Below are positions 48,267 through 57,857 of a stretch of DNA of 64,000 nt, one piece after another. The notes under the pieces were generated by a model, which was given only the letters and a program-made list of their open reading frames with translations, made no database searches and had not been told where the DNA came from. Position 1 is the first letter of the stretch. Every line of letters begins with the position of its first letter. Source of the DNA: Escherichia coli (GTDB lineage Bacteria > Pseudomonadota > Gammaproteobacteria > Enterobacterales > Enterobacteriaceae); NCBI RefSeq assembly GCF_965641715.1, contig NZ_OZ282455.1; one strand, 5' to 3'. Made by a program: the position numbers and the translations under genes.

Positions 48267-48608
48267 TCAATTGTTGTTCATATCGATGCCATCTTTCCTG
48301 CCTGAATCTGTCTTTTTAGGTGCTGTTTTAGAGGAAGAACGGCGGGATGGTTTTTTCGATTCTGCTTCCCGAATAATGTCACGAAGTGCCTTCTCTCCTA
48401 CTTCATACCCTGCATTTTTGAGCGTGTCACGAACATCTGCCAGTGTATAACCCTTTGTCCTTACCAGGACAATAATGTCATCACGAATGGCATCAAGAAA
48501 ATCACGCAATGTTTTCCGTTGAGCGGTGAGATCTGGCAATTCCGATAAAGCAGCTTTTGCCAGCTGGATGTCATCATCTGAGTAAAATTTTTTAGAAGCC
48601 ATTGGCAC
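48267..48608 (-). CDS. hypothetical basic protein (possible DNA-binding)
   Basis: 113 aa, Lys/Arg/Ser-rich C-terminal tail; adjacent to oriT. Confidence 0.35.
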   Translation of the reverse strand: MPMASKKFYSDDDIQLAKAALSELPDLTAQRKTLRDFLDAIRDDIIVLVRTKGYTLADVRDTLKNAGYEVGEKALRDIIREAESKKPSRRSSSKTAPKKTDSGRKDGIDMNNN

Positions 48609-48639
48609 TTTCTCTCCGTTTCATGTTGAAGTCTGATTT

Positions 48640-55287: not shown

Positions 55288-56496
55288 TCAGAATTCGTTG
55301 TCTGTAGCAGGTGTGCGGGGCAGGATGTCGTCGGTGAGGGACCAGTTGGTCAGGATGCGGCGTTTCCGGTCGCGATCTGGTTGTGGTTCATCCCAGATAA
55401 GACCGAGACTGAGCATATCCCGCCGTAAGCCTTCCACCGCTTCATCAACACAGGGTTCAGGGCAGGGAAGACCAAAACGCATGGCTTCGGCCTCTGCACG
55501 TGCAACGGCCACCACGCCAGCGCCTTCAATAAATCCTTTCGTGGTATTGGCGCGGTGTAATGCATAAAACAGCGTCCTGTCCACGCCTTTCAGCCAAATC
55601 CAGTTGGGTGGCGTAAGCCGCAGGTCATGTGCATACAGCCAGACCAGCCCACTGCGGACGTAGCGATGTTGTTTCAGCCATTGCTGTGCTCCGTTGCTTT
55701 TAATCACTCTCTGGAAAGCTGATTTGGCCAGTGAATAAACAGGGGTACAGAATTTCCCACTGTCCCGTTTGCTTTTAATTCTGCATGAGAGGTTCAGTGT
55801 ATCCATGAGCTTTAATGCTGCCTTACGATCATCCAGGAAATACTGAAGACCAAATATGGCAAAGAGCGCTTTTTCATGTGGTGCCATGTCTTTCCAGGAC
55901 GTTAAAGGTTTACCCAACTGGGCCATGAAACATCGTCTTGCAGCTGCAACATCGAGCTGCATATTGGTGATGAGAGTATGCTGCTCGACAAATGCTTCCG
56001 GGGTGAGAGCAACCCGCCGTTCAGGTCGTTTGCCACCATGAAAGAGTTTTTCCGGATCACCATCTGCCAGTACAGGGGCGATAGCAGGGGACAACGAAGC
56101 AAAGATGTGTGGCAGTCGGGTAATATCTACTGGTCTGCGGGTGAAACGGCTTTGTCCCGGATGTTGATACCATTCCCACAAACACCAGAGTGTCACAGGT
56201 AAGAGGTACATCCACAGAATACCTATGGTCTGCTCCATGACGTTAACCCACTGGCTATAGCTTATGTTGGCGGCGTTGTTACCGGTCATGGCAAGCAGGT
56301 TGTATCGTGGTGCTGCATAGTTATGAAATGGCCCCCAGTCGACCAGTCCCCATAAGGTATGAAGAATCAGGCAGCTGGCGTAAACCACTTCCGGCAAGAA
56401 TAACCATATGACGAATAGCAGCAGGATAAGAAGGACACCAACAGCGCCCCATATCTGCATAGGATCTTCTGCGACAGGCTGTCGATTGTAAGACAT
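55288..56496 (-). CDS. trbA: conjugal transfer membrane protein TrbA (DotM/IcmP-like)
   Basis: 402 aa, N-terminal TM helices; position upstream of trbB-trbC. Confidence 0.7.
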   Translation of the reverse strand: MSYNRQPVAEDPMQIWGAVGVLLILLLFVIWLFLPEVVYASCLILHTLWGLVDWGPFHNYAAPRYNLLAMTGNNAANISYSQWVNVMEQTIGILWMYLLPVTLWCLWEWYQHPGQSRFTRRPVDITRLPHIFASLSPAIAPVLADGDPEKLFHGGKRPERRVALTPEAFVEQHTLITNMQLDVAAARRCFMAQLGKPLTSWKDMAPHEKALFAIFGLQYFLDDRKAALKLMDTLNLSCRIKSKRDSGKFCTPVYSLAKSAFQRVIKSNGAQQWLKQHRYVRSGLVWLYAHDLRLTPPNWIWLKGVDRTLFYALHRANTTKGFIEGAGVVAVARAEAEAMRFGLPCPEPCVDEAVEGLRRDMLSLGLIWDEPQPDRDRKRRILTNWSLTDDILPRTPATDNEF

Positions 56497-56726
56497 GACA
56501 AAGTCTCCATTTCTGGAATTTAAATCAAACGGAAAGGTTAAAAATTTATTTGCAGGCGATAAGAGCTAACCAGAGGAATTAGCCGTGCGATAAAAGGATT
56601 GTTGCAGATACGAAAGTCGTTAGAATAGCTGCGGGCGCTTGAGGCTGTATGCCGAAAGCGTTTTGTGGACGGTATACAGCAGAAAGCCCCTGGAGATTTT
56701 TTTATCAATCAACCAAGGGCTCTACT

Positions 56727-56933
56727 GTAATGCCTAGACAACATTATAGTAGCCCGATAACCGCCGTAAGGCAATGGAGGGGCTATGATGCCACAGCGAA
56801 CGTTTTTAATGATGTTAATCGTCATCTGTGTGACGATTCTGTGTTTTGTCTGGATGGTGAGGGATTCGCTTTGCGTACTCCGGCTCCAGCAGGGAAACAC
56901 AGTGCTTGTGGCAACGTTAGCCTACGAAGTTAA
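56727..56933 (+). CDS. pndC: PndC (Mok-like) overlapping reading frame of hok-type toxin locus
   Basis: ORF overlapping pndA in another frame, as for mok/hok. Confidence 0.4.
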   Translation, partial: VMPRQHYSSPITAVRQWRGYDATANVFNDVNRHLCDDSVFCLDGEGFALRTPAPAGKHSACGNVSLRS

Positions 56934-56940
56934 ACGTTAA
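56788..56940 (+). CDS. pndA: Hok-family type I toxin PndA
   Basis: Translation MPQRTFLMMLIVICVTILCFVWMVRDSLCVLRLQQGNTVLVATLAYEVKR (50 aa); below the ORF-track length cut-off. Confidence 0.85.
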   Translation: MPQRTFLMMLIVICVTILCFVWMVRDSLCVLRLQQGNTVLVATLAYEVKR

Positions 56941-57011
56941 CGGGCAACACGGCGGCAGGTTTTCTGCCGCCGCTTTGTTGCGAAGGCTGACCTCATTGCG
57001 CCCTTTCTTCT

Positions 57012-57263
57012 TCAATGAAGCGTATCCGGTATTGTTTCATTTCCCCTGAAGCCGATTAGCTCCAGCCGAATGCCTTTGCCATCGGGGGCCACGTTCTGCA
57101 TTTCGCAGATACCACGTCGGGTCATGAGTGTGAAGGCTGTCATTGCCAGCATGGCTAACGCGTTTTCCTCGCTTCCGCTGCGTTTCTCGAGAGCATCGGC
57201 AATTTCTTCTATGCTCCCCACCTGAAAGCAAGAGTCGAATTCTTTACTCCACTTTTCTGACAT
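57012..57263 (-). CDS. hypothetical protein
   Basis: 83-aa ORF. Confidence 0.3.
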   Translation of the reverse strand: MSEKWSKEFDSCFQVGSIEEIADALEKRSGSEENALAMLAMTAFTLMTRRGICEMQNVAPDGKGIRLELIGFRGNETIPDTLH

Positions 57264-57422
57264 CGGATTTTCTCTCTGTATTTATGGGTAGTTATCGAAC
57301 TGAATGTGCCAGTTTTTTCAGGAGACGGCAAAGTTGAGATGATTGGTTCTGATTCAGAGCATGAGTTTCCTCGGTGTGACGGGCATGTCGGGCGGATTTT
57401 GAGAAACAACAGATGTAAAAAA

Positions 57423-57448
57423 ACCGACTGGTGAGGTCGGTTTTTTTA
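57423..57448. terminator. bidirectional rho-independent terminator
   Basis: AAAAAA-CCGAC-TGGTGAG-GTCGG-TTTTTTT hairpin flanked by A- and T-tracts. Confidence 0.65.
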
Positions 57449-57761
57449 CTGTTCCGTTACAGAGTGGGTGGCCCTGACCGGAGGAAATCTCTTTTCAACT
57501 AACGTTCTTATAATAGCGAGCTGTTCATTTGATAGCAACCATCCTTATAATCCGCAGGTTAGCTCTGTCTGGCGACACTTCTGCCGTGATATCCATCGGG
57601 ACTATGGATGCAAGATTTTAAGTCCTGGCTGAACAAACAGGTGGTGCTGTGTTCAGTGCTCTGGCAGGAGGAAGTCTCTTTTCAACTAACACTGAAAGTG
57701 CCGTTGTGACAGGCAATGTAAGAGTAAGCAACGGTGATTTCCTCCAGTGATGGAGAAGCGG

Positions 57762-57857
57762 ATGATTAATCTGTTAATCATCGTTCTCAGGGCAGTAGTT
57801 GCCGTTGCAAACGCGCTGATTGCTGTTCTGGAACTGATCCGGGAACTTGTCGACTGA
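57762..57857 (+). CDS. small hydrophobic protein (31 aa), candidate membrane peptide / type I toxin-like
   Basis: ATG preceded by GGAGAAG; MINLLIIVLRAVVAVANALIAVLELIRELVD; two ~25-bp direct repeats GGAGGAA(A/G)TCTCTTTTCAACTAAC upstream (57480-57504, 57668-57692). Confidence 0.35.
   Translation: MINLLIIVLRAVVAVANALIAVLELIRELVD

What the first reader, a model, noticed from the sequence alone, without database searches (positions are those of the whole stretch)
56649..56940. hok-type toxin pndA with overlapping pndC, missing from the six-frame track
56788-56940 translates to MPQRTFLMMLIVICVTILCFVWMVRDSLCVLRLQQGNTVLVATLAYEVKR, a 50-aa Hok-family toxin, and is overlapped by a longer out-of-frame ORF in the mok/pndC arrangement. 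It lies downstream of trbA as in IncI1 plasmids.
Basis: partly seen in the sequence, partly recalled or inferred. Interest (0 to 1): 0.35.

Follow-up and report, generated by a model that had tools for sequence, protein, structure and literature searches.

The report
Known pnd plasmid-addiction toxin locus
This is the well-known pnd "addiction" module of IncI1 resistance plasmids: a small membrane-killing toxin held in check by an antisense RNA, which kills cells that lose the plasmid. It is intact here and ordinary.

Summary
An out-of-frame ORF overlaps it. The region 56497-57030 is 530/534 identical to plasmid R64, with the same gene order: trbCBA, pnd, a hypothetical gene, dqlB, excA. About 1,950 plasmid records carry this locus.

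The whole hok/sok-type apparatus is recognisable:
- an mRNA promoter with the start near 56633;
- a 5' end (56633-56643) that pairs with a 3' element (56992-57003), and this pairing covaries in relatives;
- a conserved minus-strand promoter and terminator for a PndB antisense RNA of about 60 nt, covering the pndC start.

- pndC as published is 56730-56933 (67 codons). The ATG at 56649 only gives the longest ORF, sits in the 5' stem and is not conserved.
- pnd is transcribed divergently from trbA, so it lies upstream of trbA, not downstream.
- The functional unit runs from about 56599 to about 57010, beyond the stated coordinates.

pnd was characterised experimentally on R483, and its deletion was tested on the IncI plasmid pESBL. 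trbA-pndC is an IncI1 pMLST marker. Verdict: already known, low interest.

The parts
56599..56626 (+). Predicted pnd mRNA promoter: -35 TTGTTG (56599-56604), 16-nt spacer, -10 TAGAAT (56621-56626)
   Evidence: Read from the sequence. A -10-like TAnAAT/TATTAT hexamer sits 6-7 nt upstream of the GGGnGC start in 6 of the 8 aligned loci; the Vibrio locus is gapped there and the Providencia locus reads TAATCT. The match is below the consensus-scan threshold, so it is a weak promoter. Inferred, not mapped.
56633..57010 (+). pnd mRNA (full-length form). The 5' end near G56633 is inferred; the 3' end is uncertain but must lie beyond 57003
   Evidence: Position 1 of the Rfam RF01794 model aligns at 56633, which is 7 nt after the -10 hexamer. 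The 398-nt stretch folds at -163.9 kcal/mol, z=-6.9 against shuffles. The 3' end was not determined here.
56633..56643 (+). tac-like 5' element (GGGCGCUUGAG). It pairs with the 3' fbi in the full-length mRNA and with 56683-56690 in the truncated mRNA
   Evidence: Pair probabilities are 0.97-0.999 with 56992-57003. After truncation to 56980 or 56985 the 5' end refolds into the local stem that the Rfam consensus shows.
56992..57003 (+). fbi-like 3' fold-back element (CUCAUUGCGCCC)
   Evidence: Forbidding this pairing costs 16 kcal/mol. An equivalent complementary box lies 50-78 nt after the toxin stop in 7 of 8 related loci, with compensatory changes.
56730..56933 (+). pndC, the mok-like leader reading frame: 67 codons, overlapping pndA out of frame
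   Evidence: The coordinates transfer from the pESBL annotation, where PndC is 204 nt and starts 55 nt before PndA (PMC4288162). An ATG at mRNA nt 90-100 is conserved in 5 of the 8 loci compared, counting the window. No protein family matches.
56733..56741 (+). Predicted antisense-target loop (CCUAGACAA), immediately after the pndC AUG
   Evidence: It is the hairpin loop in the MFE structure and in the Rfam consensus. The two differences from R64 (56734 and 56736) fall in this loop.
56776..56782 (+). pndA Shine-Dalgarno sequence (GGAGGGG)
   Evidence: Read from the sequence. In the full-length fold it is partly paired with 56752-56755.
56785..56940 (+). pndA, the Hok/Gef-family toxin. It is 51 codons from ATG 56785 or 50 from ATG 56788
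   Evidence: Annotated 'Hok/Gef family protein' in the matching plasmids listed.
56746..56774 (-). Predicted pndB antisense-RNA promoter: -35 TTGCCT (56774->56769), 17-nt spacer, -10 TACTAT (56751->56746). It overlaps a perfect TATAAT at 56748->56743
   Evidence: TTGnnn and TAnnnT hexamers are conserved in register in most of the 8 divergent loci, while the flanking sequence diverges. Below the scan threshold. Inferred.
56681..56742 (-). Predicted PndB antisense RNA, about 56-62 nt: a single-stranded 5' tail complementary to the pndC start and loop, then a terminator hairpin (56724->56685) and a UUUCU tail
   Evidence: Folds are (-21.6 kcal/mol). In the 8-locus alignment 7 of the 14 hairpin pairs show compensatory changes, although the RNAalifold covariation term is about zero (+0.56 kcal/mol), so this alignment neither supports nor contradicts the hairpin. 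The ends are inferred from promoter and terminator geometry, not mapped.
56950..56972 (+). GC-rich hairpin with a T-run just after the pndA stop. It lies inside the 3' UTR, upstream of fbi
   Evidence: Terminator-like scan hit. It forms part of the long 3' hairpin in the MFE structure. A comparable hairpin is present at the same place in the homolog downstream sequences.

Best explanation
This is an intact copy of the pnd (pndA/pndB/pndC) type I toxin-antitoxin locus of IncI1 plasmids, a hok/sok homologue that works by post-segregational killing. The mechanism below follows the hok/sok and pnd literature, and I mark which steps are supported here. (1) A weak promoter makes a stable mRNA of about 370-390 nt starting near 56633. 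Its 5' end (tac, 56633-56643) pairs with a 3' element (fbi, 56992-57003), which locks the RNA in a form that is neither translated nor bound by the antisense RNA. The pairing is predicted here and supported by covariation. (2) Slow 3' trimming removes fbi. The 5' end then snaps into a local hairpin, and the RNA refolds to expose the pndC start (56730) and the target loop (56733-56741). The refolding is predicted here; the processing itself is taken from the literature. (3) While the plasmid is present, a short unstable antisense RNA, PndB (minus strand, about 56742->56681), pairs with the pndC initiation region. This blocks pndC translation and therefore the coupled translation of pndA, and it marks the duplex for cleavage. 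The gene, promoter and terminator are predicted and conserved here; the coupling and cleavage come from the literature. (4) In a cell that has lost the plasmid, PndB decays and the processed mRNA is translated. The 50-aa PndA inserts into the inner membrane through its hydrophobic helix (residues 6-24) and kills the cell.
For: Identity: 530 of 534 nt match R64 across promoter, leader, genes and 3' UTR. The gene order trbC-trbB-trbA | hok-family gene | hypothetical | dqlB | ... excA is the same in R64, pESBL-117 and ColIb-P9, except that dqlB is not annotated in ColIb-P9. Megablast finds 1,945 plasmid records, 1,898 of them predicted conjugative.

Toxin: Pfam HOK_GEF at 45 bits against a cutoff of 22, with the invariant Cys, Thr, Arg and Y-E residues of the family.

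RNA: Rfam RF01794 at 134 bits, full length. The 5'-3' end pairing has probability above 0.97 and is worth 16 kcal/mol. The same end pairing occurs in 7 of 8 loci with compensatory changes at a constant distance; for example mRNA position 4 is C, U or A and its partner is G, A or U. The one exception has an IS421 insertion in its 3' UTR.

Antisense gene: the -35 and -10 hexamers are aligned in most of the 8 loci, and the terminator stem has 7 of 14 compensatory pairs.

[quoted passage not shown] The native R483 pnd locus mediates post-segregational killing, and PndA is toxic on overexpression (bioRxiv 10.1101/2025.08.07.668861).
Against: Nothing was measured for this particular copy. The transcript ends, the 3' processing, the instability of PndB and the pndC-pndA coupling all rest on homology and on the literature. 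Both promoters are below the threshold of the consensus scan. No clear intrinsic terminator follows fbi, so the 3' end of the full-length mRNA is undefined. The hairpin with a T-run at 56950-56972 precedes fbi; if it terminated efficiently, the transcript would lack fbi. On pESBL the pnd deletion alone had no stability phenotype, so the contribution of pnd is partly redundant. One study cited found tagged R483 PndA non-lytic.
Confidence: 0.95

Rival explanations
1. A decayed, non-functional relic of a hok-type locus, like the chromosomal hok loci of E. coli K-12 that have been inactivated by insertions or point mutations.
For: Chromosomal hok loci do not mediate post-segregational killing (literature summarised). 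One relative fetched here (L009) has an IS421 insertion that removes its fold-back element, so decay does occur in this family. The V30 substitution relative to R64 is untested.
Against: Every element is intact: both promoters, tac and fbi, the pndC ATG, the Shine-Dalgarno sequence, the toxin ORF and the antisense terminator. The locus differs from R64 at only 4 of 534 positions. The V30 protein carries the same accession as the ColIb-P9 and pESBL-117 proteins, and at least 421 plasmid records hold a match of at least 99% identity. Plasmid-borne pnd on IncI pESBL is functional.
Confidence: 0.03
2. The full 94-aa ORF 56649-56933, the reader's 'pndC' coordinates, is the real leader protein, translated from the ATG at 56649.
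For: It is the longest open frame and begins with ATG.
Against: The published PndC annotation is 204 nt, which corresponds to 56730-56933. ATG 56649 is mRNA nt 17, inside a very stable stem, and has no Shine-Dalgarno sequence. The IncK2/Z relative lacks this ATG but keeps the ATG at nt 97. Relatives have a start at nt 90-100 whatever frame it is in. The predicted antisense RNA covers 56730, not 56649. No protein family matches either version.
Confidence: 0.03
3. The locus is kept mainly for something other than plasmid addiction, for example abortive infection against phage or competition between plasmids. The molecular mechanism would be the same but the selected function different.
For: The pnd deletion alone had no effect on pESBL stability. 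From my own knowledge, hok/sok of R1 has been reported to exclude phage T4. The antisense target loop comes in two common alleles.
Against: No evidence from this window bears on it. The triple-mutant and microfluidics data on pESBL show pnd acting on plasmid-free segregants.
Confidence: 0.1

Closest known systems
pnd (pndA/pndB/pndC) of IncI1 plasmids R64, ColIb-P9, R483 and pESBL
   Same: 530 of 534 nt are identical to R64. The PndA protein carries the same accession as in ColIb-P9 and pESBL-117. The position next to trbA and the pndC length and offset match the pESBL annotation.
   Different: PndA has V30 where R64 has G30. Two substitutions in the target loop just after the pndC AUG give CCUAG here against CUUCG in R64, and there is one substitution upstream of the promoter. 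There is no finQ or IS66 insertion between trbA and pndC, unlike pESBL and pEC_Bactec.
hok/sok (parB) of plasmid R1 and srnB of F, the paradigm type I toxin-antitoxin systems
   Same: The architecture is the same: a Hok-family toxin, a leader reading frame starting in the antisense target hairpin, a cis-antisense RNA of about 60 nt, end-pairing of the mRNA 5' and 3' ends, and a GC hairpin after the stop codon.
   Different: The toxin is only 38-46% identical to the Hok-like and SrnB-like relatives. In the SrnB-like and IncHI2 loci the leader frame is in frame with the toxin, whereas pndC is out of frame, as the published descriptions give for mok.
Rfam RF01794 'sok'
   Same: Full-length match at 134 bits.
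   Different: The model matches the toxin-sense strand and ends on the toxin ATG in all 8 loci examined. It therefore describes the mRNA leader, not the antisense RNA, which is predicted on the opposite strand at about 56742->56681.

Membership tests
Hok/Gef toxin family (Pfam PF01848) | A peptide of about 50 aa that scores above the family threshold | tested here: met
   45.1 bits against a cutoff of 22, E=7.4e-12.
Hok/Gef toxin family (Pfam PF01848) | N-terminal transmembrane helix plus the conserved Cys, Arg and C-terminal L-x-Y-E residues | tested here: met
   Residues 6-24 have mean Kyte-Doolittle 2.97. C14, T16, L18, R25, L28, C29, L44, Y46 and E47 are invariant in 8 relatives.
hok/sok-type type I TA locus | Structured mRNA leader upstream of the toxin gene | tested here: met
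   Rfam RF01794 at 134 bits against a gathering score of 59, covering model positions 1-157. The same match appears in 7 fetched relatives.
hok/sok-type type I TA locus | Long-range pairing of the 5' end (tac) with a 3' element (fbi) in the full-length mRNA | tested here: met
   Pair probability above 0.97 and a 16 kcal/mol contribution. It is conserved with compensatory changes in 7 of 8 loci, 50-78 nt after the stop.
hok/sok-type type I TA locus | Leader (mok-like) reading frame that starts in the antisense target region and overlaps the toxin gene | tested here: met
   pndC 56730-56933 ends 7 nt before the pndA stop and matches the published PndC coordinates.
hok/sok-type type I TA locus | Cis-encoded antisense RNA gene with its own promoter and terminator, opposite the leader | tested here: inconclusive
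   The -35 and -10 hexamers align in most of the 8 loci. The terminator hairpin has 7 of 14 compensatory pairs, but the RNAalifold covariation term is about zero; its fold is. The promoter is below the scan threshold, and the transcript itself cannot be observed with these tools.
hok/sok-type type I TA locus | 3' processing activates translation, the toxin is translationally coupled to the leader frame, and plasmid-free cells are killed | not testable with these tools
   Only in-silico refolding on truncation could be shown. Functional evidence comes from the literature on R483 and pESBL.
IncI1 pnd locus specifically | Near-identity to R64 pnd and a position beside trbA in the transfer region | tested here: met
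   99.3% identity over 534 bp, with synteny shown.

The most novel reading that the evidence does not exclude
The two substitutions that separate this copy from R64 (56734 and 56736; loop CCUAGACAA against CUUCGACAA) fall exactly on the two free positions of a YUNR-type U-turn motif in the predicted antisense-recognition loop. Both alleles are common: 441 and 575 plasmid records carry the exact 60-mer. This could mean that IncI plasmids carry distinct PndB/pnd specificity types that do not cross-neutralise, so the locus would also serve in competition between related plasmids. It may equally be neutral drift at unconstrained loop positions. Because the RNA is cis-encoded, each allele stays perfectly self-complementary either way.
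Probability: 0.12. Interest if true: 0.35.

Novelty: already known. Interest (0 to 1): 0.05.

Why it matters
It matters little as a discovery. pnd has been characterised since about 1990. It is part of the standard IncI1 typing scheme (the trbA-pndC pMLST locus), and NCBI annotation already labels the toxin gene. The practical value lies in annotation quality. The toxin is short enough to be dropped by ORF-length filters. The published pndC start differs from the longest ORF. The Rfam 'sok' hit marks the sense-strand leader, not the antisense RNA. This plasmid segment carries two adjacent type I toxin-antitoxin systems (pnd and dqlB/agrB), which is relevant to anyone trying to cure or destabilise IncI1 resistance plasmids.

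Tried and rejected
- The consensus promoter scan of 56450-57100 found no sigma-70 site on either strand. Both promoters were therefore placed by hand from hexamer spacing and from conservation in relatives, and they remain inferences.
- The first automatic attempts to delimit toxin and leader ORFs in relatives used wrong anchors or frames. They were redone with annotated stop positions.
- I looked for a second pnd or hok copy in the window, because many plasmids show two matching places. There is none, by Rfam over the whole 64 kb or by blastn. The second place in ColIb-P9 is a partial copy of the promoter and leader, 560 bp downstream of pnd.
- No protein family matched PndC, in either the 94-aa or the 67-aa version, or the convergent 83-aa ORF.
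- I considered and rejected the idea that the hairpin with a T-run at 56950-56972 is the mRNA terminator. Relatives have an equivalent hairpin upstream of their fold-back box, and the fold-back box would otherwise not be transcribed. This was not tested experimentally.
- The large protein, structure and metagenome searches were not used, because close annotated relatives answered the question.

Full report
**Observation.** One codon upstream there is a second in-frame ATG at 56785, which some annotations use, giving 51 aa. An out-of-frame ORF, 56649-56933, overlaps it. The peptide is a clear Hok/Gef family member: Pfam PF01848 scores 45.1 bits against a cutoff of 22, E=7.4e-12. It also matches the NCBIfam Hok models at E=9e-19 and 4e-11, although below their equivalog cutoffs. 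Its hydrophobic core is residues 6-24, and the residues invariant across eight relatives (C14, T16, L18, R25, L28, C29, L44, Y46, E47) are all present. The region just upstream, 56633-56790(+), matches Rfam RF01794 over its whole length at 134 bits, E=6e-32.

**Identity.** A 521-bp query around the locus is 100% identical to many E. coli and Salmonella plasmids. It finds 1,945 plasmid records, almost all predicted conjugative, and the listed matches are annotated 'Hok/Gef family protein'. Against the IncI1 reference plasmid R64, window 56497-57030 is identical at 530 of 534 positions. The four differences are:
- 56588, upstream of the promoter;
- 56734 and 56736, in the loop just after the pndC start;
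- one base that changes PndA G30 to V30.

The V30 protein carries the same accession in ColIb-P9 and in pESBL-117. The gene order is the same in R64, pESBL-117 and ColIb-P9: nikB, trbC-trbB-trbA on the minus strand, the hok-family gene on the plus strand, a convergent hypothetical gene, dqlB, then excA and traY onward. The one exception is that dqlB is not annotated in ColIb-P9. The 402-aa minus-strand neighbour at 55288-56496 has a DotM_C domain and corresponds to TrbA.

- *pndC start.* In the published table for the IncI plasmid pESBL, PndC is 204 nt and starts 55 nt before PndA (PMC4288162). Transferred to the window this is 56730-56933, or 67 codons. The ATG at 56649 merely gives the longest ORF. 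It is nt 17 of the mRNA and sits inside a stable stem. It is missing in the IncK2/Z relative, which keeps the ATG at nt 97. Relatives have a start codon at nt 90-100 whether or not it is in frame with the toxin.
- *Orientation.* trbA is on the opposite strand and starts at 56496. pnd is therefore upstream of trbA and divergently transcribed, not downstream. This intergenic region is the 'trbA-pndC' locus of IncI1 plasmid MLST (PMC2887853). The finQ and IS66 insertions described there are absent here.
- *Extent.* The functional unit is larger than the stated coordinates, running from about 56599 to about 57010.

**Anatomy of the mRNA.**
- A -10-like TAGAAT (56621-56626) with TTGTTG 16 nt upstream places the mRNA start near G56633, which is also position 1 of the Rfam model. 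In 6 of the 8 aligned loci a TAnAAT/TATTAT -10-like hexamer sits 6-7 nt before the GGGnGC start.
- The 398 nt from 56633 fold at -163.9 kcal/mol, z=-6.9.
- In that fold 56633-56638 pairs with 56998-57003, and 56640-56643 pairs with 56992-56995, with probabilities of 0.97-0.999. Forbidding this pairing costs 16 kcal/mol.
- When the 3' end is trimmed to 56980-56985, the 5' end instead pairs locally with 56683-56690. This is the stem drawn in the Rfam consensus.

**Test of the end-pairing in relatives.** I compared seven related loci: IncK2/Z, Photobacterium, Vibrio, Providencia, an SrnB-like IncF locus and two IncHI2 loci.
- Including the window, seven of the eight loci have a box complementary to their own 5' end, 50-78 nt after the toxin stop.
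- The changes are compensatory. For example GGGCGC/GCGCCC becomes GGGUGC/GCACCC or GGGAGC/GCUCCC.
- In most of these loci few or none of 500 shuffled controls do as well.
- The exception has an IS421 element inserted in its 3' UTR.

**Anatomy of the antisense gene.** On the minus strand, TTGCCT (56774->56769), 17 nt, then TACTAT (56751->56746) forms a promoter-like pair. These hexamers stay in register in most of the eight loci while the surrounding sequence diverges. Downstream lie a tail of about 14-16 nt and a hairpin at 56724->56685, followed by UUUCU. Seven of the 14 hairpin pairs show compensatory changes, although the RNAalifold covariation term is about zero, so that alignment adds little. 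The predicted PndB RNA of about 60 nt (about 56742->56681) is complementary to the pndC start codon, to the loop after it and to the region upstream. pndA has a strong Shine-Dalgarno sequence (GGAGGGG, 56776-56782).

**Mechanism.** The locus has every sequence feature of the hok/sok paradigm, so I take the mechanism from that paradigm.
- The stable full-length mRNA is held inert by pairing of its two ends.
- Slow 3' trimming triggers refolding, which exposes the pndC start.
- PndB blocks pndC translation, and with it the coupled translation of pndA, as long as the plasmid keeps supplying PndB.
- After plasmid loss PndB decays, and PndA is made and damages the inner membrane.

Shown or supported here are the reading frames, family membership, predicted structures, covariation of the end-pairing, and conservation of both promoters and of the antisense terminator. 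Taken from the literature are the processing, the coupling, RNA stability and the killing itself. The literature support is as follows:
- The pESBL paper states that pndB antisense RNA neutralises the membrane-damaging PndA toxin in IncI plasmids.
[quoted passage not shown] Instability appeared only in the par, oriT, pnd triple mutant (PMC7602700).
- A recent survey of Hok toxins lists R483 PndA among the characterised homologues. It reports that the native R483 locus mediates post-segregational killing (bioRxiv 10.1101/2025.08.07.668861).

**Uncertainties.**
- Transcript ends are inferred, not mapped.
- Both promoters fall below the consensus-scan threshold.
- No obvious terminator follows the fold-back box. 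A hairpin with a T-run (56950-56972) lies before it, and relatives have the same arrangement.

**A small point of possible interest.** The two substitutions relative to R64 lie in the predicted antisense-target loop, giving CCUAGACAA against CUUCGACAA. They change only the two free positions of a pyrimidine-U-N-purine motif. From my own knowledge, that motif is the U-turn proposed to speed antisense recognition in this family. Both alleles are frequent: 441 plasmid records carry the exact 60-mer of this window and 575 carry that of R64. This may be neutral variation, or it may define specificity types; nothing here decides between the two.

**Verdict.** This is a correct identification of an already well-known locus, with minor errors in the pndC start and in the orientation relative to trbA. 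The novelty rating is 'already known' and the interest is low.

Noticed in passing
window 57415-57857: A second type I toxin-antitoxin system lies about 500 bp from pnd. The ORF 57762-57857(+) encodes a 31-aa DinQ-like toxin, DqlB (NCBIfam NF041473, 67 bits against a cutoff of 35), annotated dqlB at the same spot in R64 and pESBL-117. An AgrB-like RNA hits Rfam RF02891 at 57415-57502(-), 55 bits against a gathering score of 40. A 33-nt direct repeat (57471-57503 and 57658-57690, 88% identical) makes the AgrB-like RNA complementary in trans to the dqlB 5' UTR. DqlB/agrB was validated on pOXA-48 and reported in 67% of IncI1 plasmids (PMC12365149). It is a candidate for the 'additional TA' suspected on IncI pESBL (PMC7602700).
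   Followed up: partly
window 56633-56790 (+) and loci L004-L010: The Rfam family RF01794, named 'sok antitoxin', matches the toxin-sense strand and ends on the toxin ATG in all 8 loci examined. It therefore models the hok/pnd mRNA leader rather than the antisense RNA. Automatic annotation from this hit would place 'sok' on the wrong strand.
   Followed up: partly
window 56734 and 56736: The only differences from R64 within the leader fall in the predicted antisense-target loop (CCUAG against CUUCG), at the two degenerate positions of a YUNR motif. Both alleles are common among plasmids: 441 and 575 exact 60-mer matches.
   Followed up: partly
L011 (ColIb-P9, NC_002122.1) 48474-48616: ColIb-P9 carries a partial second copy of the pnd promoter and 5' leader, 81% identical over about 157 nt, roughly 560 bp downstream of its pnd locus. 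This probably explains the '2 places' reported for many IncI plasmids. The copy is absent from this window.
   Followed up: partly
window 57012-57263 (-): A conserved 83-aa hypothetical ORF converges on pnd and ends 9 nt beyond the fold-back box. It is annotated 'hypothetical' in R64, ColIb-P9 and pESBL-117 and has no Pfam or NCBIfam match. Its 3' end shares the GC hairpin at 56950-56972 with the pnd 3' UTR.
   Followed up: no
L009 (NZ_AP027418.1, IncHI2 plasmid): This Hok-family locus has an IS421 element inserted about 45 nt after the toxin stop, which removes the 3' fold-back box that its intact sister locus L010 retains. By the hok model, such a truncated mRNA would lack the translational lock.
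   Followed up: no
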